Sequence record: NZ_CP064116.1
Source: a plasmid
DNA length: 64,000 nt
Strand: one strand, 5' to 3'
Made by a program: the position numbers and the translations under genes. The notes beneath the pieces are model-generated. The model saw nothing but the letters and a program-made list of their open reading frames with translations. It was not told the origin of the DNA and ran no database searches. This document shows positions 5,143-51,873 of the stretch, in pieces; the first letter of the stretch is position 1; each line of letters starts with the position of its first letter.

Positions 5143-5175
5143 TCCGGCAAACGGGGCCGCGTCGCGGTCCCGTTA

Positions 5176-5913
5176 TCAGTCCAGGTATCGTTCGTAGTCT
5201 CTGGCATGCGCAAAGGCATGCTGTTCGAGTTTGTTATCAGCGGGTGCCGATGCCCGGAACGCCAGTGAATTAACAGGATTGTTATTGATGACCAGCTCGT
5301 AATGTAAATGAGGACCGGATGAACGTCCGCTGTTACCGGATAACGCAATAGCACCTCCCCGGGTAACTCTGGCCCCTTTAGTAACGAGTATTTTATTGAG
5401 GTGGAGATAGCGAGTTTTAACACCGGCTTTTCCCGTTACTTCAACAAAATATCCCATGGTACTGTTGTATTCGGCCCGGGTGATTTTTCCGTCGATGACG
5501 CTGACTATTTTCGTGTTCATGGGCATGGAATAATCAATGCCATTATGGGGACTCACTTTTCCCGATACCGGGTTAAGTCTTGCAGGATTGAAAGGTGAAC
5601 TGAGTCTTGCTGTGGCTGGTAACGGATAATCGAGACTGCCTTTCCCGGAAGTATCGGAAAGATTATAGAACTTTTTGTCTGATATACGATACGCCGTGTA
5701 ATTAAATGAGCCGGACGTAAATTTATAAGCCACTACACGTGATTTTCCCGCTTTCTTTTGCAGTACGAGTTTTAATGATTCATTTTTTTTCAAATGCCGA
5801 AGATTAAAGCGGGAAGGCAAAGAGCGCTGAAGGATAGCGATCTCGTTCGATTCCAGCCCCGAGCGGGTGGCTGAAAGGTAAGCATTTTCTTTTACGACAT
5901 CGGTAGAATACAT
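5176..5913 (-). CDS. M23 family metallopeptidase (LysM-less, YebA-like)
   Basis: 245-aa ORF with an HxxxD…GxSGxSxGPHLHYE-type M23 signature (NGIDYSMP…GNSGRSSGPHLHYEL). Confidence 0.75.
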   Translation of the reverse strand: MYSTDVVKENAYLSATRSGLESNEIAILQRSLPSRFNLRHLKKNESLKLVLQKKAGKSRVVAYKFTSGSFNYTAYRISDKKFYNLSDTSGKGSLDYPLPATARLSSPFNPARLNPVSGKVSPHNGIDYSMPMNTKIVSVIDGKITRAEYNSTMGYFVEVTGKAGVKTRYLHLNKILVTKGARVTRGGAIALSGNSGRSSGPHLHYELVINNNPVNSLAFRASAPADNKLEQHAFAHARDYERYLD

Positions 5914-6201
5914 TTACTGGAATTCGCCGTTAGCATGAACACTGCGGCGTATGCTAGGGGTTTTCAGGAGGAGTGTCATCTGCCAGTTAATCGGGAGCAC
6001 CGTTGATGGTCGTCATTTTTGTAACATATCTTGTTTCCCGTTTGCTCCTGAAGCTCTGGGAAGTGTATGACCAGCCCGGCGGTGATGATTAACGGGTCTG
6101 AAACAGGTTACGGCAGAGCAATATGAAGCTCATGTCCTGCGACGTAACCCGTCAGTGAAACCCTGCTGCGCACCTGACGCTAAGCACTAACCCACCTGCC
6201 T

Positions 6202-6651
6202 TTACCTGGACGAATCCAGCCCACGAAGCTTTCTTGCCTGCGTCTGATGAGCTTCCGCAGCGGCATTATTGACCTGCTCATGCACGAGGGCGGCTTTCTC
6301 TCCGGCATTCAGTTCGTTAAAAGAAGAAGATGATGTCTCTGAATTTGCGTCACTCCCGGACAGCATTTTTTTATGTTCCTCAATCATTTTTTGATGTGCA
6401 TAGGACGCGCTGTTGTTCATAAATGAATGCGCAACAATGGCCCTTTCATGTTCATTCATTTCAGAGAATGATGGCGTGCTCTTTTTATTAATCCTGCCCG
6501 GCAAGTTTTCATGCGTCGAGGAATTAACATGACTGACGGCTGAGGCATTGTTCACGAATCGATGTGCTTCATGGGCAATATCACTGGACTTGGCAAAAAC
6601 TGCCCCACAAAATAAAGCTGTAAACGCAGTGGTAGTGATTAATATATTCAT
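6202..6651 (-). CDS. PcoE/SilE-family periplasmic metal-binding protein (second, divergent copy)
   Basis: 149-aa ORF with a signal peptide and repeated HExx/Met-His-rich motifs. Divergently oriented upstream of pcoA. Confidence 0.7.
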   Translation of the reverse strand: MNILITTTAFTALFCGAVFAKSSDIAHEAHRFVNNASAVSHVNSSTHENLPGRINKKSTPSFSEMNEHERAIVAHSFMNNSASYAHQKMIEEHKKMLSGSDANSETSSSSFNELNAGEKAALVHEQVNNAAAEAHQTQARKLRGLDSSR

Positions 6652-6723
6652 GTGTGATTACCTTCTTAGGTACATAAAAGATGTCATCACGATCATATAT
6701 AAAAATAATCAATCTGTGGTGAA

Positions 6724-6758
6724 GATGACGTAAATGTAATACAGCTACGTACATTACA
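6724..6758. promoter_or_regulatory. TGTAAT/ATTACA palindromic repeats (copper-box-like operator) in the divergent intergenic region before pcoA
   Basis: Sequence tgtaatacagctacgtacattacacgattgtaat, 130-160 bp upstream of the pcoA start. Confidence 0.35.
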
Positions 6759-6885
6759 CGATTGTAATGAATTTGTTTCTTAAGGTGTGCTAGCTTCATT
6801 TCATTGTAAGAGGATGAACCAGAAATTTAATTTAAATCGGTTCTCGAACTTTGTCAGTAACCATACTTTAAATAAGGGAACGCGC

Positions 6886-8703
6886 ATGCTGTTGAAAACG
6901 TCTCGACGAACTTTCCTGAAGGGATTAACCCTCTCTGGCGTAGCCGGAAGTCTTGGCGTATGGAGTTTCAATGCGCGTTCCAGTCTGAGCCTGCCAGTTG
7001 CCGCATCCCTGCAGGGTACTCAGTTTGACCTGACCATTGGTGAAACGGCCGTCAATATCACTGGCAGTGAGCGTCAGGCCAAAACAATCAATGGAGGCCT
7101 GCCGGGGCCCGTTCTTCGCTGGAAAGAAGGTGACACCATTACCCTGAAGGTCAAGAACCGTCTTAATGAACAGACGTCCATTCACTGGCACGGCATTATT
7201 CTTCCAGCCAATATGGATGGTGTTCCGGGGCTGAGTTTTAGGGGCATAGAGCCTGATGATACCTACGTTTACACCTTTAAGGTTAAGCAGAACGGGACTT
7301 ACTGGTACCACAGCCATTCCGGTCTGCAGGAACAGGAGGGGGTATACGGTGCCATTATCATCGATGCCAGGGAGCCGGAACCGTTTGCTTACGATCGTGA
7401 GCACGTGGTCATGTTGTCTGACTGGACCGATGAAAATCCTCACAGTCTTCTGAAAAAATTAAAAAAACAGTCGGATTACTACAATTTCAATAAACCAACC
7501 ATTGGCTCTTTTTTCCGCGACGTGAATACCAGGGGGCTGTCAGCCACTATTGCCGATCGGAAAATGTGGGCTGAAATGAAAATGAATCCGACTGACCTCG
7601 CGGATGTCAGTGGCTACACCTACACCTATCTCATGAACGGTCAGGCCCCGCTGAAAAACTGGACCGGGCTGTTCCGTCCCGGTGAAAAGATACGCTTACG
7701 GTTTATCAACGGTTCGGCAATGACCTATTTCGATATCCGCATCCCCGGGCTGAAAATGACGGTCGTGGCTGCAGATGGCCAGTATGTAAACCCGGTTACC
7801 GTTGACGAATTCAGGATTGCCGTTGCCGAAACCTATGATGTCATTGTGGAGCCTCAGGGTGAGGCCTATACCATCTTCGCACAATCCATGGACAGGACCG
7901 GCTACGCTCGGGGGACACTGGCCACGAGAGAGGGGTTAAGTGCTGCCGTTCCCGCCCTGGATCCACGTCCTCTGTTGACCATGGAAGATATGGGTATGGG
8001 AGGAATGGGGCATGATATGGCAGGAATGGACCACAGCCAGATGGGGGGCATGAATAACAGCGGAGAGATGATGTCTATGGACGGTGCTGAGCTTGCGGAT
8101 AGCGGGACATCCTCCGCACCCATGGATCACAGCAGCATGACTGGTATGGATCATTCCCAGATGGCCGGAATGCCGGGTATGCAAAGTCATCCTGCGTCAG
8201 AAACGGGTAACCCACTGGTTGATATGCAGGCGATGAGCGTCTCTCCGAAATTAAACGATCCGGGTATCGGTCTTCGAAATAACGGAAGAAAGGTTCTCAC
8301 GTACGCGGATTTGAAAAGCCGCTTTGAGGATCCTGACGGACGTGAACCTGGCCGCACCATAGAACTGCATTTAACCGGTCACATGGAAAAGTTTGCCTGG
8401 TCATTTAACGGAATCAAGTTTTCAGATGCCGCACCGGTGCTGCTGAAATACGGTGAGCGACTCAGGATCACTCTGGTCAACGATACCATGATGACTCACC
8501 CCATTCACCTGCATGGTATGTGGAGCGATCTGGAAGATGAAAACGGTAATTTCATGGTTCGTAAACACACAATAGATATTCCCCCTGGTACAAAACGCAG
8601 TTACAGAGTGACAGCAGATGCGCTTGGCCGCTGGGCGTATCACTGCCATTTGCTCTATCACATGGAAATGGGAATGTTTCGTGAAGTCCGGGTGGAGGAA
8701 TGA
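6886..8703 (+). CDS. pcoA: Multicopper oxidase PcoA (Tat-secreted)
   Basis: Start [14 protein letters not shown] (twin-arginine motif) with an AAGGGAA RBS. Cupredoxin His motifs ([16 protein letters not shown]) and a Met-rich central region. Confidence 0.9.
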
Positions 8704-19813: not shown

Positions 19814-20394
19814 GGCGGCCTGTTCTTATGGCGGCCGGGTGTTGTGTTATGTGGTGCATGCGTTATAATCCTTCACAGGCCACGCGCCTGCTTTTGGACC
19901 CCCTGATATCTGTGTCTTCCGCCAAGATGATGACAGATGTCGGGGGGGTTGTGCATTCAGGCTCCGGGAAATCCCGTTACCTGCTCCTGAACGTTTTACT
20001 GGACACGTCCTGTCCCTGTCTGTTTCCGGAAGTCCGCATTTCTTCCGTAAAACCATCTTTTGCCACCCGCCTGCCTCACCACAAAGCAGTCAAACCGTCA
20101 GTTTGAGTTAGGACACAAAAGTAATCTGAATCAACAATCTGTCCCACCACAAGACGATCGCTGACGATCCGAATACTACCTTCTCATCAGTAACTTTTCC
20201 AGATGTTAGACCAGATAACAATCCATAGTTTTCATGCTAATTGTCCGGATGAGACTGCTAGCAAGCATCGCACGCAGTAAATTCAGGGCGTTGGGTTTGA
20301 TTTGGTAGGCCAGAGCAAGGAAAATAATTTAGAGGAAGAGCTTTACCTAATAGTTGCAAGTTGACTCTTTCGTATGTTCACTGCACTTAAAAAA

Positions 20395-20465: not shown

Positions 20466-21205
<740 letters not shown>

Positions 21206-21571: not shown

Positions 21572-22390
21572 TTAAAATTTACTCGCATGGATAACATCCA
21601 TTATAAATACAACTAAAGTATGAGATGCATTAACTGCGAGTCTAGCTTCGGCAACTACTATCTGCGGAGGGTTTTGACCACGCCCATGAGCACTCCCTAT
21701 ATGTGACCGGAATGCGCCAATACCGTCGATTAGTGATGAAATTCCTTTTAAAATTTTGTGCTGGTCACCCGCTAAAGTGGGATCGGAATTAAGGTCCAAG
21801 TCTGGCTGTACGACAGCCCAAAGTGGTGCTACATTCAATTTTTGTGGCATAGGTAAATTGAATTTTTCTATGTAGCATTTTAATGCAGATTCAATTATAG
21901 CGCATGCGGCAGTGACTGATGCATGTGGATCGGTTTGAATATTCTCCACTGCACGAAGAAACTCATTTTCAATGGATGAATAGTCACCAGACTTTAGATA
22001 ATCCTCTAACGTCTTAGAAATCGGAGTAGACCCAGACTTAGTTATAAATCCATTGAGTCTGTAGACTAATTGGTTCTTGGATAAAGCATCAATTATTCTT
22101 TTTTGTCCACTTTCGACTGTAGACCCAGCTCCTGCCCTAGAGAATGAATTTGGAGGTAAATCCATATATTTTTGGATAATTATCCCCAGTACTGAAATTG
22201 CATCTACTGAGTCATCTTCATTGCAAGCTTTAAGCCAATTGCTGCATTTTGTTTCACAGTTTCCTGGAGGCACCTCACCAGGTGCGCCCGATTCCATAAA
22301 CAGTGAATTTAAAGTTGAATGGCTAAAATAATGCTCACCCAGTACTGAAGACACCGCGCCAATTACATTGTTAGGTATTTTATTATTCAT
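21572..22390 (-). CDS. Abortive-infection-like protein (Abi_C-type C-terminal domain)
   Basis: 272-aa ORF in an AT-rich islet. The C-terminal motif AFRSHIGSAHGRG resembles the conserved R-x-x-x-G-x-AHG motif of the Abi_C family. Confidence 0.5.
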   Translation of the reverse strand: MNNKIPNNVIGAVSSVLGEHYFSHSTLNSLFMESGAPGEVPPGNCETKCSNWLKACNEDDSVDAISVLGIIIQKYMDLPPNSFSRAGAGSTVESGQKRIIDALSKNQLVYRLNGFITKSGSTPISKTLEDYLKSGDYSSIENEFLRAVENIQTDPHASVTAACAIIESALKCYIEKFNLPMPQKLNVAPLWAVVQPDLDLNSDPTLAGDQHKILKGISSLIDGIGAFRSHIGSAHGRGQNPPQIVVAEARLAVNASHTLVVFIMDVIHASKF

Positions 22391-23026
22391 TCTTTCCTAC
22401 GGGATTATTCTATTGTTAATTTCAATTAATTATTATAACCGAAAAATGAGGTACGATAAATACCTGGTTTTTACATAACCAACATTGGCAAGCTGTTCCT
22501 GATAATTAACGCTCTGGACAAGTCCGATTGTCAGGTGGGGTTTGAGTGCCTGGGCAGTCATATGACCGCCCAGGATTTGTTTAGAGATAGCCGAGGTACT
22601 TCGTAACAAGAGTCAAAAGACCAGTAATGGACACAATGACCGCCGCTACATCCACTTTTATCTCAATTTTCAGATCGATATTCATCGCTTATGCTCTGAT
22701 ATGATCTGGGGCCCCAGACACGTAATATCTGGCGTATTTATACTGCCGCAGCCTTGGACAGTTCGTGGTTTACATAACCGGTATTGTTCCCACGTTCCGA
22801 GTTTCCTGAAACGCTCTTTAACCCTCACCATCAGCCCTGCCAATGATAAGTTTGCCCACAGGGCAGTCTCCGAACGTCTTTTCGACCCATCAGCAACTTA
22901 TGCCTAAGTCACCGGAGGCGTGCGAGCCACACATTGAACATTACAGATCTATTAGCAGCTTGTCACCGGGTGAAGATGTAAAGGTTTTGTATTAATTCGA
23001 AGAAGAGGTTTTGATCATGAAAAGAT

Positions 23027-23153
23027 TGGTGGCTGGCGAGGACTCGAACCTCACATCCCCTTCCAATAGATTCAGTACCTAAACCTATTGGAAGGCCCTT
23101 CAAAATTGCTTATGAAGGGACCCAGGGAGCTCTACCAACTAAGCTAACCAGCC
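23027..23153 (-). ncRNA. tRNA-like element with an expanded internal region
   Basis: Read on the minus strand: acceptor 5' GGCTGGT, D-arm GCTT-AGTTGGTA-GAGC, then two hairpins (~75 nt) in place of an anticodon arm, T-arm GAGG-TTCGAGT-CCTC, acceptor 3' GCCAGCC, discriminator A, CCA. Total ~127 nt. Confidence 0.4.
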
Positions 23154-23969
23154 ATTAAATGCATTCCGGAGTCTATCAACCTCATCTTTATCTTGCAAGT
23201 AATTGTTGATTAATGTCTTTGTGATTGCATTGTCTTTACGAGGACCAGTAAGGTGTTTATATTTTATGCAAAGTGATTTTGCGATTTTTTCAATGTCTAA
23301 CATTTTTTGGCAGATATGGTGGGCGACCTGTTGGCATACCTGAGAATACAGAATTACATCACGTATTGTTAATTCAGCTTCTTTATTAACTTCATGCTTG
23401 TATTTTTTACTCATTTTAATTAAGTCAGATTCTGAAAACATTTCTTCCCAAAGATTAGTGTTTTCTCGGCTATGTGCGTTAATATTACGAACAAGTCTAA
23501 AGTAATCCAATAATTTTAAATCAAGTTCATCAATGTAAATTGACAACTCATTATGGTTTAATTTAGGATGCGTAATCTTACCATTTATTTTGTTCACATG
23601 AGCATGGTGAATTGCTCTACGTAGTATGTCTACATTATCAATATTGAATGACCGTTCATCACTATATATTTTTTTTGACAAGGAAATGTAGTCTTTCAAA
23701 AATGATTCTAGGCAGCTATATATAAATGCAATATGACTTTGTGTTACGTAGAGAGATGTTTTGTAAATCTCTAAATGTGCAACTTTTAGTTTTGCATTTT
23801 TATGCTTTTTAGTTACGTCTTCAATTCGATTAATGTTAATGCGGCCAGATTCATCTTTGCAAAGGAGTTCCTTTACTGCTACATCAATCAGAATTAAATG
23901 TGGGTTTACTGTCCCTAAAAGTTTTCTGAATTTTGTCTCAATAGATCGTGGCTGCATATCTTCTGTCAT
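23139..23969 (-). CDS. HEPN-like protein (AbiD/AbiF Abi_2-type R-x4-H motif)
   Basis: 276 aa from an ATG with AGGAGG 10 bp upstream. ~30% GC. Motif YFRLVRNINAHSRE (R-x4-H). Its 3' end overlaps the tRNA-like element. Confidence 0.45.
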   Translation of the reverse strand: MTEDMQPRSIETKFRKLLGTVNPHLILIDVAVKELLCKDESGRININRIEDVTKKHKNAKLKVAHLEIYKTSLYVTQSHIAFIYSCLESFLKDYISLSKKIYSDERSFNIDNVDILRRAIHHAHVNKINGKITHPKLNHNELSIYIDELDLKLLDYFRLVRNINAHSRENTNLWEEMFSESDLIKMSKKYKHEVNKEAELTIRDVILYSQVCQQVAHHICQKMLDIEKIAKSLCIKYKHLTGPRKDNAITKTLINNYLQDKDEVDRLRNAFNGWLA

Positions 23970-51244: not shown

Positions 51245-51727
51245 TTAACCCTTTTTCCAAATTTGATAGCAATAGTTAATGTTTGAAGTAAAGTGTTGCT
51301 CAAAAACAACTTCGAAGGTATTTGGAATACTCGGGAAGAAAACATCCCCCTCTGGCTCGATGTCGATCGTCGATAAGTGGAGCGTAGAGGCCATGGGTAA
51401 TGTTTCTCGGTAAATTTCTCCGCCACCAGACACTATAACGTGACCGGTGAATTCAGCTAGCCTGTCCATGGCCTCTTCGATTGACTGAAATACAACTACA
51501 TTGTCATCATTTGATGTCCAACCTGAGCGGGTAACGACCGCGTATTTCCTATTGGGGAGTGCGCCCATAGATTCAAACGTCTTGCGACCCACCAGAAGCC
51601 ACTGATTGTAGGTCAATGCTTTAAAAAGTAGCTGCTCCCCTTTCGCGGACCAGGGTATGTCTGGACCGCAACCAATCACGCCGTTTTTCGCTTTCGCAGC
51701 CATCAATGATACTTTCAAGGTTCTCAT
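51245..51727 (-). CDS. dfrA14: Trimethoprim-resistant dihydrofolate reductase cassette, dfrA14/dfrA5-type
   Basis: DHFR family A sequence (…[64 protein letters not shown]…). A single cassette adjacent to attI1, followed by mobC-IS6100 instead of a 3'-CS. Confidence 0.75.
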
Positions 51728-51873
51728 CCTGGGTTAACTTTGTTTTAGGGCGACTGCCCTGCTGCGTAACATCGTTGCTGCTCCATAACATCAAACATCG
51801 ACCCACGGCGTAACGCGCTTGCTGCTTGGATGCCCGAGGCATAGACTGTACAAAAAAACAGTCATAACAAGCC
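51728..51873 (-). promoter_or_regulatory. attI1 recombination site and cassette promoter region of the class 1 integron
   Basis: Lies between the cassette and the divergent intI1. Contains …gttaactttgttttagggcgactgccctgctgcgtaacatcgttgctgctccataacatcaaacatcgacccacggcgtaacgcgcttgctgcttggatgcc (reverse complement of the canonical 5'-CS attI1 segment). Confidence 0.6.

What the first reader, a model, noticed from the sequence alone, without database searches (positions are those of the whole stretch)
23027..23153. tRNA-like element with the anticodon arm replaced by two long hairpins
On the minus strand there is a canonical acceptor stem (GGCTGGT / GCCAGCC, then A and CCA) and a D-arm (GCTT-AGTTGGTA-GAGC). 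The T-arm (GAGG-TTCGAGT-CCTC) is also canonical. The outer parts resemble tRNA-Lys/Asn-type sequences. Between the D- and T-arms, however, lie ~75 nt forming two hairpins (GTCCCTTCA…TGAAGGGCC and CCTTCCAATAG…CTATTGGAAGG) instead of a 17-nt anticodon arm. Its 5' end overlaps the last codons of the HEPN-like gene. It could be a structured tRNA-like ncRNA partnered with the HEPN protein, a decoy or substrate mimic, or a disrupted tRNA or att-site relic of an integrated element.
Basis: seen in the sequence. Interest (0 to 1): 0.7.

Follow-up and report, generated by a model that had tools for sequence, protein, structure and literature searches.

The report
tRNA-shaped RNA partnered with HEPN toxin
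A 127-base tRNA-derived RNA with two long hairpins in place of the anticodon arm sits at the end of an uncharacterised HEPN ribonuclease gene, contains that gene's stop codon, and recurs across distant bacteria as a probable toxin/RNA-partner module on plasmids and defence islands.

Summary
Window 23027-23153 (minus strand) folds into an acceptor stem, D-arm, T-arm and ACCA end, with two long hairpins where the anticodon arm should be. RefSeq already labels this stretch "tRNA-OTHER". It is not a relic. The same element follows every full-length homologue of the upstream 276-aa gene for which I had readable DNA (19 distinct versions, protein identity down to about 20%). Two partial plasmid homologues lack it. 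Compensatory changes support all five helices (98.6% paired, 29 of 41 pairs changed on both sides). Within close relatives the element is more conserved than the coding sequence. The protein belongs to no Pfam, NCBIfam or PADLOC family. It has an invariant RNxxxH motif, and its confident AlphaFold model is closest to HepT-type HEPN toxins. The stop codon always lies inside the 5' part of the RNA, usually at nucleotides 13-15. About two thirds of family proteins end in peptides that spell the tRNA 5' strand. Contexts are defence islands, an integrative element and a type I restriction operon, never phages. Best reading: a two-part HEPN toxin/tRNA-like RNA module resembling AbiF-AbiFr. The RNA's role is inferred, not shown. 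I found no publication describing it.

The parts
23139..23969 (-). HEPN-family gene, 276 aa (WP_100135202.1, annotated 'hypothetical protein'). ATG at 23969; AGGAGG Shine-Dalgarno at 23983-23978; catalytic-type motif R161-N-I-N-A-H166 (codons at about 23489-23472); stop TAG at 23141-23139.
23027..23153 (-). tRNA-derived structured RNA, 127 nt: the whole element from G1 to the encoded 3' CCA.
   Evidence: Covariance model hit at 128.6 bits on exactly these coordinates. PGAP labels it 'tRNA-OTHER'. Covariation support.
23147..23153 (-). Acceptor stem, 5' strand (GGCUGGU). It doubles as codons Gly-Trp-(Leu) of the HEPN protein.
   Evidence: It pairs with 23031-23037. Pairs 2-71 and 3-70 covary: GC:12 CG:2 AU:1 GU:1, and CG:15 UA:1. 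In L005 the change G2>A (Gly>Asp in the protein) is compensated by C71>U.
23129..23144 (-). D-arm GCUU-AGUUGGUA-GAGC. It carries A14 and G18G19 and contains the ORF stop codon at RNA positions 13-15 (U13 A14 G15).
   Evidence: Helix is 98.4% paired across 16 sequences. The stop falls at nt 13-15 in the window group, L007, L010, L019, L020, L027, L029 and L030.
23094..23122 (-). Hairpin 1: core 10 bp CCCUUCAUAA/UUUUGAAGGG with a GCAA loop, and a possible 2-bp GG/CC extension at its base. It is probably the homologue of the anticodon arm.
   Evidence: 8 of 9 (five-helix model) or 9 of 10 (P3 model) pairs change on both sides while staying paired; 97-98% of cells paired. A pyrimidine-rich 5' strand and GAAGG-like 3' strand are shared with the single long arm of the sister clade.
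23059..23095 (-). Hairpin 2: 15 bp UUCCAAUAGGUUUAG/CUGAAUCUAUUGGAA with a GUA loop, extendable to 17 bp by CC/GG. It sits where a long variable arm would be.
   Evidence: 14 of 17 pairs change on both sides; 98.2% paired. RNAalifold predicts it on its own.
23038..23052 (-). T-arm GAGG-UUCGAGU-CCUC with a canonical T-loop (UUCRANY). A fifth pair, U101-G117, is possible.
   Evidence: 4 of 5 pairs covary; 98.8% paired.
23027..23037 (-). Acceptor 3' strand GCCAGCC, discriminator A, and genome-encoded CCA.
   Evidence: An NCCA-type 3' end is present in most lineages, with exceptions ACCG in L023, AUCC in L029 and ACUA in L030. Sequence similarity between relatives collapses immediately 3' of it, to 60% against 92.5% inside the element.

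Best explanation
This is a two-part genetic module: a HEPN-fold ribonuclease (the toxin or effector) and a tRNA-derived non-coding RNA made from the 3' end of the same transcript.

Shown here: the RNA and the protein are an old, co-inherited pair. The RNA keeps the tRNA 'top half' (acceptor stem, D/T elbow, NCCA end) but has no anticodon loop. The ORF always terminates inside the RNA's 5' portion.

Inferred: because it looks like a pre-tRNA, the host tRNA-maturation machinery excises and stabilises the RNA, with RNase P cutting at G1 and 3' trimming or CCA repair at the other end. The mature RNA binds the HEPN dimer through its clade-specific lower hairpins and holds it inactive, as AbiFr does for AbiF and ToxI for ToxN. 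It possibly acts as an uncleavable mimic of a tRNA substrate. An RNase P cut at G1 would also remove the last five codons and the stop codon from the toxin mRNA. Processed transcripts would then yield RNA partner but only non-stop (tmRNA-tagged) protein, keeping RNA in excess over toxin. Phage infection or loss of the element would upset this balance and release the RNase, giving abortive infection or addiction.
For: Partnership:
- The element directly follows the gene in all 19 distinct versions of the locus with a full-length homologue, from Enterobacter plasmids to Thioploca, Acaryochloris and Bernardetia, at 100% down to about 20% protein identity. Neighbouring genes differ in every lineage.
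- Model R1 scores 84-136 bits in the main clade and 28-56 bits in the sister clade.

Structure:
- 98.6% of cells are paired, and 29 of 41 pairs change on both sides. 0 of 500 shuffles reach the observed values, and slid controls give 34-57% pairing.
- RNAalifold independently recovers the same five helices.

Constraint:
- Within the close group, the element is 92.5% identical, against 83.4% for the last 300 nt of the CDS and 60.4% for the 120 nt downstream.
- A Gly>Asp change in the protein is tolerated where it is compensated in the acceptor stem.
- In L014 the reading frame across the element differs, yet the RNA is kept.

tRNA ancestry:
- Rfam tRNA RF00005 scores above its gathering threshold on L029 (46.9 bits), L007 (33.7) and L030 (33.2). 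PGAP calls the window copy tRNA-OTHER.

Overlap is family-wide:
- 145 of 221 full-length family proteins end in peptides that spell the tRNA 5' strand; 94 end in ...LA, others in ...GW...AW or ...LAQR.
- The stop codon lies inside the element in every locus read.

Protein is HEPN:

Defence or addiction context:
- Gabija-like OLD+UvrD and RES genes; Mrr; a position between hsdS and hsdR of a type I R-M operon, which, from my own knowledge, is the position prrC occupies in the EcoprrI locus; and first cargo next to the integrase of a tRNA-Leu island.
- It was absent from 50,697 phage records and IMG/VR contigs as far as searched.

Precedent:
- AbiF is a HEPN toxin neutralised by a cis-encoded ncRNA in an RNP (PMC12737573). 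A stand-alone HEPN defence protein, HepS, is an anticodon nuclease (PMC13043305).

Lower body:
- It differs between protein clades, with two hairpins in one and one long arm in the other, while the tRNA top half stays the same. This is the pattern expected if the lower body is the protein-specific part.
Against: - No transcript, processing, binding or toxicity data exist. Every functional step (RNase P cleavage, RNP formation, neutralisation, trigger) is inferred.
- In known type III systems the RNA lies upstream of the toxin or is a tandem array. Here it is single-copy and downstream.
- tRNA-like RNAs are usually long-lived, whereas classical antitoxins are labile, so a simple decay-after-shutoff trigger is not obviously applicable.
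- Two partial, distant plasmid homologues (Methylobacterium, Rhizobium) keep RNxxxH but lack the RNA, so the protein can exist without it.
- The protein is not a sequence member of the AbiF/Abi_2 family.
- The covariation alignment was fitted to a model, which inflates pairing percentages.
- The short helix that would enclose both hairpins (P3) is only 88.6% paired, and RNAalifold does not predict it.
Confidence: 0.5

Rival explanations
1. The element acts purely in cis. Its job is to end, process or stabilise the HEPN mRNA: an RNase P or 3'-exonuclease barrier, a translation/folding toggle, and removal of the stop codon so that most protein is tmRNA-tagged. In this reading the excised RNA has no function of its own and does not bind the protein.
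For: The stop codon lies inside the element in every locus, usually at nt 13-15. The element keeps the features RNase P is known to recognise, namely a 7-bp acceptor, a T/D elbow and NCCA; U is at position -1 in most main-clade lineages. No separate promoter or terminator was detected.
Against: A minimal tRNA or acceptor/T minihelix would be enough for processing. Yet 60-75 nt of extra hairpins are kept, with 22 covarying pairs and partly conserved sequence (UCCAAU/AUUGGA), and they are remodelled in step with protein clades. The element is more conserved than the coding sequence.
Confidence: 0.2
2. The RNA is a sensor, bait or co-factor rather than an inhibitor. The HEPN-RNA particle would monitor something that acts on tRNAs during infection, such as phage tRNA-repair or modification enzymes, phage nucleases, or CCA or aminoacylation status. 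Alternatively the RNA is required to activate or target the nuclease, in the way a crRNA serves Cas13.
For: The tRNA elbow, acceptor stem and NCCA end are retained across phyla even though decoding is impossible. HEPN-RNA particles evolved into guide-dependent Cas13 (PMC12737573). Defence HEPN proteins can be activated by direct sensing of phage products (PMC13043305).
Against: The discriminator base and acceptor pairs 1-3 vary between lineages (A, U or G at position 73), which argues against one conserved aminoacyl-tRNA synthetase or enzyme partner. G3:U70 is absent. No associated sensor gene is conserved nearby. No loop sequence is conserved that could act as a guide.
Confidence: 0.15
3. It is a working tRNA gene interrupted by an intron or a very long insertion, and it decodes after splicing.
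For: PGAP labels it tRNA-OTHER. The Rfam tRNA model matches three relatives end to end, with a large insertion.
Against: There is no 5-bp stem with a 7-nt anticodon loop in any lineage. Hairpin loops are 3-7 nt, variable, and sometimes GNRA tetraloops. The insert is 60-75 nt, which from general knowledge is far too small for a bacterial group I intron. ARAGORN finds nothing in the window or in 14 loci. The discriminator is not conserved.
Confidence: 0.02
4. It is a decayed or disrupted tRNA, or the att-site remnant of an integrated element, and lies next to the HEPN gene by accident.
For: Integrases occur near several copies, and islands commonly insert into tRNA genes.
Against: The element is conserved with compensatory changes across phyla and in unrelated neighbourhoods. 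It is more conserved than the CDS. Its outer halves match no chromosomal tRNA in 5,426 E. coli genomes. In L005 the island's attachment tRNA is a separate intact tRNA-Leu(CAA) beside the integrase. From general knowledge, att remnants duplicate tRNA 3' ends, whereas here a complete 5'-to-3' cloverleaf overlaps the ORF.
Confidence: 0.02

Closest known systems
AbiF-AbiFr (type III toxin-antitoxin; the HEPN toxin with a cis-encoded ncRNA that is regarded as the Cas13 ancestor)
   Same: A HEPN-fold RNase encoded next to a conserved structured ncRNA on mobile elements and defence loci. In AbiF the RNA forms an RNP with a HEPN dimer and blocks its non-specific RNase activity (PMC12737573).
   Different: The protein is not a sequence member of Abi_2/AbiF. 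Here the RNA is tRNA-derived, single-copy, lies downstream and overlaps the ORF's last codons and stop codon. Binding and neutralisation are untested.
ToxIN / CptIN / TenpIN type III toxin-antitoxin systems
   Same: A protein RNase toxin plus an RNA partner from the same locus, with abortive-infection and plasmid-addiction roles (from general knowledge).
   Different: From general knowledge, those toxins are not HEPN proteins. Their RNA is a tandem array of short repeats upstream of the toxin, separated by a terminator and processed by the toxin itself. No tandem repeats are present here.
PrrC / RloC anticodon nucleases and HepS
   Different: There is no ABC-ATPase N-domain (no Pfam hits). PrrC is restrained by a protein (EcoprrI) and HepS by its own tetramer, not by an RNA. 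tRNA cleavage by this family is unproven.
tRNA-like domains of other non-coding RNAs (tmRNA, bacterial Y-RNA-like YrlA, mascRNA)
   Same: An acceptor/T-arm/D-loop 'top half' without a decoding anticodon loop. From general knowledge, tRNA-processing enzymes mature these RNAs.
   Different: ARAGORN and Rfam find no tmRNA match. There is no G3:U70 alanine identity pair, no tag ORF, and no rsr/Ro gene nearby. The partner here is a HEPN protein and the RNA overlaps its coding sequence.
Irregular 'allo-tRNA-like' genes near toxin-antitoxin loci (Mukai et al. 2017, PMC5389517)
   Same: Non-canonical tRNA-shaped genes, some with predicted five-stem junctions, found next to TA systems and apparently not used in translation.
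   Different: Those RNAs have anticodon loops and 8/4 or 9/3 acceptor/T geometry. They come from Acidobacteria-type metagenomes and are not described as overlapping a HEPN ORF. No homology was tested here.

Membership tests
Canonical tRNA (Rfam RF00005) | 7-bp acceptor stem, D-arm, and T-arm with a TPsiC-type loop, with an NCCA end | tested here: met
   Sequence and fold. These helices are conserved with covariation. In the window lineage the acceptor and T stems total 11 bp instead of 12.
Canonical tRNA (Rfam RF00005) | Anticodon arm: 5-bp stem with a 7-nt loop carrying an anticodon | tested here: not met
   It is replaced by two hairpins (10-12 bp and 15-17 bp), or by one long arm in the sister clade. 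Loops are 3-7 nt and variable.
Canonical tRNA (Rfam RF00005) | Detected by tRNA finders or the Rfam tRNA model at its gathering score | tested here: inconclusive
   Window copy: ARAGORN finds none and Rfam finds none, even at E<=10. However, PGAP labels it tRNA-OTHER, and relatives L029, L007 and L030 score 46.9, 33.7 and 33.2 bits against a gathering score of 29.
HEPN superfamily | Rx4-6H catalytic motif | tested here: met
   R161-N-I-N-A-H166. R and H are invariant and N nearly invariant in 51 diverse family members.
HEPN superfamily | All-alpha HEPN fold | tested here: met
HEPN superfamily | Metal-independent RNase activity | not testable with these tools
   Needs biochemistry.
Type III toxin-antitoxin (AbiF-AbiFr type) | RNase toxin gene with a conserved cis-encoded structured ncRNA | tested here: met
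   19 of 19 distinct versions of the locus with a full-length homologue carry the RNA. Covariation.
Type III toxin-antitoxin (AbiF-AbiFr type) | Toxin belongs to Abi_2/AbiF (or ToxN/CptN/TenpN) by sequence | tested here: not met
   No Pfam hit for the window protein or for any of 51 members at E<=1. No PADLOC or NCBIfam hit.
Type III toxin-antitoxin (ToxIN type) | RNA is a tandem repeat array upstream of the toxin | tested here: not met
   There is one copy per locus, downstream and overlapping the gene. No tandem repeats.
Type III toxin-antitoxin (any) | RNA binds and neutralises the toxin | not testable with these tools
   Requires co-expression, toxicity and pull-down experiments.
tmRNA | tRNA-like domain with G3:U70, a tag reading frame and pseudoknots; detected by ARAGORN or Rfam | tested here: not met
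   ARAGORN finds no tmRNA and Rfam gives no hit. Pair 3-70 is C-G.
PrrC/RloC anticodon nucleases | N-terminal ABC-type ATPase domain fused to the nuclease domain | tested here: not met
   No ATPase or any other Pfam domain in the 276-aa protein or its relatives.
tRNA-gene att-site remnant | Partial tRNA 3' copy at an island border, matching a host tRNA gene | tested here: not met
   It is a full cloverleaf. No chromosomal match in E. coli. A separate true tRNA-Leu is the island border in L005.

The most novel reading that the evidence does not exclude
The RNA is a tRNA-mimic antitoxin for a previously unrecognised family of HEPN tRNA nucleases, and the gene/RNA overlap is a built-in dosage device. 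RNase P cleavage at G1 liberates the RNA and at the same time strips the stop codon from the toxin mRNA. Each processed transcript then yields one inhibitor and only tmRNA-tagged toxin. The module would couple toxin release to the state of the host's tRNA-processing and ribosome-rescue machinery during infection. That would be a new class of RNA antitoxin (host-processed and substrate-shaped) and a new way of setting a toxin:antitoxin ratio.
Probability: 0.25. Interest if true: 0.9.

Novelty: new variant of a known kind. Interest (0 to 1): 0.78.

Why it matters
HEPN ribonucleases are among the commonest effectors of bacterial immunity, yet how most of them are kept silent is unknown. This finding points to an unannotated HEPN family, with about 125 clusters at 50% identity plus a sister clade of more than 150 clusters at 90% identity, and no Pfam, PADLOC or NCBIfam model. 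Its conserved partner is a tRNA-derived RNA that annotation pipelines miss or label 'tRNA-OTHER'.

If the RNA restrains the nuclease, it extends the AbiF/Cas13-type protein-RNA logic to a second, independent HEPN lineage. It would also show that a tRNA scaffold can be recruited as an antitoxin or sensor.

The universal placement of the stop codon inside the tRNA D-arm gives a directly testable link between tRNA processing, non-stop mRNA rescue and toxin control.

On the practical side, the module sits on multidrug-resistance plasmids of the Enterobacter, Klebsiella and Escherichia group (39 records), next to replication and addiction genes, so it may contribute to plasmid persistence or phage resistance in clinical strains.

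Tried and rejected
Searches that found nothing:
- ARAGORN on the window and on 14 related loci found nothing at the element.
- Rfam gave no hit on the window copy, either at gathering scores or at E<=10, and none in six further loci.
- Pfam, PADLOC and NCBIfam scans of the protein, Pfam scans of 51 family members, and a PDB sequence profile search found no family.
- Foldseek against the PDB found nothing significant. The afdb50 library was unavailable.
- The first AlphaFold run, with 10 sequences, was poor (pLDDT 58.7). It was replaced by a 51-sequence run.
- tblastn of family members found only the one allele in plasmids, plus four distant hits, and nothing in phages.
- Protein-pattern scans of IMG/VR found no relatives.
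- A DNA-pattern scan of IMG/VR hit only two unrelated phage tRNA genes with inserts.
- Nine literature searches found no description of a HEPN/tRNA-like module.

Ideas considered and dropped:
- Interrupted chromosomal tRNA or att relic.
- Intron-containing functional tRNA: there is no anticodon loop.
- tmRNA or YrlA-type RNA: no G3:U70, no tag ORF, no Ro gene.
- ToxI-like repeat array.
- The neighbouring AbiJ-like, DUF2913 and VasL genes as parts of the module: none is conserved next to it elsewhere.
- A conserved aminoacylation identity: the discriminator base varies.
- A helix enclosing both hairpins (P3): left open. It is 88.6% paired with three covarying pairs in a model-fitted alignment, but RNAalifold does not predict it and it competes with a better-supported 2-bp extension of hairpin 2.
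- Promoter and terminator scans were uninformative.
Full report
**1. The observation**

On the minus strand of window 23027-23153 the sequence reads GGCUGGU-UA-GCUU-AGUUGGUA-GAGC ... GAGG-UUCGAGU-CCUC-GCCAGCC-A-CCA. This is a 7-bp acceptor stem, a D-arm with A14 and G18G19, a T-arm with a canonical UUCRANY loop, a discriminator A and an encoded CCA.

Between the D- and T-arms lie two hairpins. Hairpin 1 is CCCUUCAUAA-GCAA-UUUUGAAGGG. Hairpin 2 is UUCCAAUAGGUUUAG-GUA-CUGAAUCUAUUGGAA. ViennaRNA folds the 130 nt into exactly this shape at -57.1 kcal/mol, against -38.8 +/- 3.8 for 200 dinucleotide shuffles (z = -4.86).

The upstream ORF ends ...AAU GGC UGG UUA GCU UAG. Its last four codons and its stop codon are therefore the acceptor 5' strand, U8-A9 and the D-stem/loop, with the stop at RNA positions 13-15 (window 23141-23139).

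Results from standard detectors:
- ARAGORN reports no tRNA or tmRNA anywhere in the window.
- Rfam reports nothing here, at gathering scores or at E<=10.
- NCBI's PGAP annotates the identical 127 nt as 'tRNA-OTHER', overlapping CDS WP_100135202.1, in E. coli plasmid NZ_CP129241.1.

**2. Where the window comes from**

The region is 100% identical to IncFII/IncFIB-type plasmids of Enterobacter hormaechei and E. cloacae, and to plasmids of Klebsiella, Leclercia, Raoultella, Citrobacter and one E. coli. Exactly 39 PLSDB plasmids carry the element, all at >=99% identity. Only 1 of 5,426 complete E. coli genomes has it, on a plasmid.

**3. The gene**

The real start is the ATG at 23969, with an AGGAGG Shine-Dalgarno site 8 nt upstream. 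This gives 276 aa, as annotated and as in all homologues.

The protein has no Pfam, PADLOC or NCBIfam match. None of 51 diverse relatives has a consistent Pfam match at E<=1. A profile search finds no PDB relative.

An exhaustive profile search of 1.84 billion representative proteins finds only 125 relatives (59 at E<=1e-10). A further search seeded with the distant members recovers a sister clade of 156 clusters, all 'hypothetical' with no Pfam domain.

Across a 51-sequence alignment with 27% mean column identity, the only invariant residues besides Met1 are R161 and H166 of an R-N-x-x-x-H motif, which is the HEPN Rx4-6H signature.

I conclude that the protein is a new, unannotated family of the HEPN superfamily. 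RNase activity is inferred.

**4. The RNA is a conserved partner**

I retrieved DNA for every homologue I could. These were exact-protein look-ups; pattern scans of GTDB genomes and JGI metagenomes; plasmid tblastn.

In all 19 distinct versions of the locus with a full-length homologue, the gene runs into a tRNA-shaped element:
- the close group at 75-100% protein identity (window, L002, L003, L005, L011, L013, L016, L017, L018);
- L007, L010, L019, L020 and L014 (Thioploca MAG) at 31-41% identity;
- L021 and L023 at about 20-22% identity;
- L027 (a MAG), L029 (Acaryochloris marina pREB4) and L030 (Bernardetia plasmid) from the sister clade.

Flanking genes differ from lineage to lineage, so the conserved unit is the gene plus the RNA only.

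Two partial, distant plasmid homologues (Methylobacterium pMRAD03 and a Rhizobium plasmid; 26-32% identity over 67-74% of the query) keep RNxxxH. They have longer C-termini and no such RNA.

**5. Structure support**

A covariance model built on 14 sequences (R1) scores the 16 main-clade copies at 84-136 bits. It scores the three sister-clade copies at 28-56 bits.

On the model-derived alignment, the five-helix structure that RNAalifold predicts on its own (acceptor, D, hairpin 1, hairpin 2 of 17 bp, T) gives the following:
- 98.6% of cells are paired.
- 29 of 41 pairs have changes on both sides, covering 82 cells.
- The covariation score is 0.502, against 0.200 +/- 0.015 for shuffles (0 of 500 reach the observed value).
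- Sliding the 3' partners by one to three columns drops pairing to 34-57%.

Covarying pairs per helix are: acceptor 2, D 1, hairpin 1 8 of 9, hairpin 2 14 of 17, and T 4 of 5.

An alternative structure has a 5-bp helix (P3) closing a three-way junction around both hairpins. It is 88.6% paired with three covarying pairs. RNAalifold does not recover it, and it competes with the better-supported CC/GG extension of hairpin 2. I leave it open.

Caveat: the alignment was fitted to a model, which favours pairing. The direct side-by-side sequences show the same compensations. Examples are GGCUGGU/GCCAGCC against GACUGGU/GCCAGUC, GGCUGGA/UCCAGUC, GCCUGGU/ACCAGGC and GACUCAC/GUGAGUC, and GAGG/CCUC against AUGGG/CCCAU, GGAG/CUCC and GAAGG/CCUUU.

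**6. The RNA, not the peptide, carries the constraint**

- Within the close group, mean pairwise identity is 92.5% for the element, 83.4% for the last 300 nt of the CDS and 60.4% for the next 120 nt. Similarity ends at the CCA.
- In L005 the acceptor change G2>A turns Gly into Asp in the protein and is compensated by C71>U.
- In L014 the ORF reads through the element in a different frame (...QWLGSL*), yet the cloverleaf is intact.
- The last residues are unstructured in the model.

**7. tRNA ancestry and what varies**

The Rfam tRNA model matches three relatives end to end above its gathering score: L029 at 46.9 bits, L007 at 33.7 and L030 at 33.2, against a threshold of 29. The element is therefore tRNA-derived.

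The top half (acceptor, D/T elbow, NCCA-type end) is common to all copies. In L014, loss of the D-loop GG coincides with loss of the T-loop C56.

The lower body is clade-specific. The window clade has two hairpins. The sister clade has one long irregular arm with a CCUCC-rich 5' strand and a GAAGG-rich 3' strand, like hairpin 1. Hairpin 1 is thus probably the anticodon-arm homologue, and hairpin 2 occupies the variable-arm position.

No lineage has a 7-nt anticodon loop. Loops are 3-7 nt and include GNRA tetraloops (GCAA, GCGA, GAAA).

The discriminator base varies (A, U or G) and pair 3-70 is C-G. A conserved aminoacylation identity is therefore unlikely, and alanine identity of the tmRNA kind is excluded.

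**8. The overlap is a family-wide rule**

In every locus read, the stop codon lies within the first 17 nt of the element:
- at nt 13-15 (U13-A14-R15, i.e. a U followed by the near-universal A14 and R15 of tRNA D-loops) in most lineages;
- at nt 7-9 in L021 and L023;
- at nt 15-17 in L014.

The protein sequences show the same pattern without any DNA. Of 221 full-length family proteins, 145 end in peptides that spell a tRNA 5' strand in this frame. 94 end in ...LA (xUA GCU stop). Others end in ...GW or ...AW (stop at nt 7-9) or in ...LAQR (GCU CAG CGG UAG, a canonical D-arm).

**9. Genomic context**

- L003/L004 (Providencia): directly downstream of a Gabija-like OLD-family ATPase plus UvrD helicase pair, and next to a RES-domain gene.
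- L007-L009 and L021/L022: Mrr-type restriction genes.
- L002 and L005: an MTES_1575-type gene. L005 also carries TraI_2 and a P4-type integrase.
- L027: the gene lies between hsdS and hsdR of a type I R-M operon, the slot that prrC occupies in the EcoprrI locus (my knowledge of the literature).
- Window: it lies between a DUF1778/GNAT toxin-antitoxin pair plus an AbiJ-like (Abi_C) gene on one side, and DUF2913/VasL genes on the other, near repA.

None was found in 50,697 phage genomes or in IMG/VR contigs.

In L005 a genuine tRNA-Leu(CAA) sits next to the integrase. It marks the island border, so the tRNA-like element is cargo and not the att site.

A chimeric query made from the two outer halves matches only the plasmid itself in 5,426 E. 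coli genomes, apart from a non-significant 20-nt D-arm match to one tRNA-Lys gene.

**10. How it most likely works**

*Shown:* a HEPN-fold protein and a tRNA-derived structured RNA are co-inherited as a compact unit on mobile elements and defence DNA. The RNA is under stronger constraint than the ORF, and the ORF always terminates inside it.

*Inferred, by analogy:* AbiF is a HEPN toxin neutralised by its cis-encoded ncRNA AbiFr in an RNP (PMC12737573). Defence HEPN proteins such as HepS are anticodon nucleases (PMC13043305). On that basis I consider the most likely mechanism to be a type III-like toxin/RNA pair, in which the RNA binds and restrains the nuclease through its clade-specific lower body.

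The tRNA top half has two plausible uses:
- It recruits host tRNA-maturation enzymes to excise and stabilise the RNA from the mRNA 3' end. All RNase P recognition features are present, and U is at position -1 in most main-clade lineages.
- It mimics the nuclease's tRNA substrate while lacking a cleavable anticodon loop.

Cleavage at G1 would delete the last codons and the stop codon from the mRNA. This predicts non-stop translation and tmRNA tagging of the toxin made from processed transcripts. That would be a way to keep RNA in excess even though it is encoded downstream of the toxin.

None of these steps is demonstrated. I put 0.5 on the toxin/RNA-partner model, 0.2 on a purely cis-acting processing element, 0.15 on a sensor or co-factor role, and about 0.02 each on a functional tRNA and on a relic.

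**11. Comparison with known systems, and novelty**

In function the module most resembles AbiF-AbiFr, but it fails membership: no Abi_2 similarity, and a different RNA, position and topology. It is not ToxIN-like, because there is no repeat array. It is not tmRNA or YrlA. It is not a PrrC/RloC member, because it has no ATPase domain.

Irregular tRNA-like genes near TA loci, some with five-stem junctions, were noted by Mukai et al. (PMC5389517). They were not linked to HEPN genes or to an ORF overlap.

Nine full-text searches of about 8 million papers and preprints found no description of this module. An unindexed paper cannot be excluded.

I classify it as a new variant of a known kind (a HEPN toxin with an RNA partner), carried by a previously unannotated protein family and by an RNA absent from Rfam 15 (no dedicated family; the window copy matched nothing).

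**12. Verdict**

Function remains inferred. Interest is 0.78.

Noticed in passing
window 21572-22390 (-): A 272-aa protein with an Abi_C domain (E 1.1e-14) and a PADLOC AbiJ match lies 636 nt downstream of the tRNA-like element. It is a second HEPN-type abortive-infection candidate on the same strand, but it is not found next to the module in any other locus.
   Followed up: partly
window 20466-21205 (+): An overlapping DUF1778 (88 aa) and GNAT acetyltransferase (161 aa) gene pair, i.e. a TacAT-like toxin-antitoxin module, lies next to the replication region.
   Followed up: no
window 19827-19950 (-): Rfam PK-repBA pseudoknot (84.6 bits) lies upstream of repA. This is the IncFII-type replication control region and identifies the window as plasmid DNA.
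   Followed up: no
window 51712-51784 (-): Rfam AAC_AAD_leader/attI match (64.2 bits) indicates a class 1 integron cassette region elsewhere in the window.
   Followed up: no
window 22391-23026: About 636 nt with no convincing ORF lie between the element's CCA end and the AbiJ-like gene. This stretch is not conserved among relatives (60% identity, close to the level of unrelated sequence).
   Followed up: partly
L027 1945-3996 (+): An unknown 683-aa ORF with no Pfam hit sits between hsdS and the HEPN gene inside a type I restriction-modification operon. It is a possible additional restriction-linked defence gene.
   Followed up: no
L005 5149-7123: A genuine tRNA-Leu(CAA) (7039-7123, -) lies immediately beside a P4-type integrase (5149-6816, -). 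The HEPN/tRNA-like module is the first cargo gene of this integrative element, which also carries TraI_2.
   Followed up: yes
L024 6353-6560 and L025 3750-3960 (IMG/VR contigs): Phage tRNA genes whose 5' halves match GGCTGGNTAGCTTA...GGTARAG continue into long inserts, possibly introns. L025 lies within a tRNA cluster. They are unrelated to the HEPN module.
   Followed up: partly
L031 2959-3906 and L032 2881-3867: Distant homologues on Methylobacterium radiotolerans pMRAD03 and a Rhizobium leguminosarum plasmid keep the RNxxxH motif. They have extended C-termini and no tRNA-like element, so this branch may be controlled in a different way.
   Followed up: partly
L018 3817-3942 (VOFL01000102.1): A copy with a 100% identical protein has a 1-nt deletion (CCC to CC) in the linker just after the D-arm. 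This is natural variation in the region of the uncertain P3 helix.
   Followed up: no
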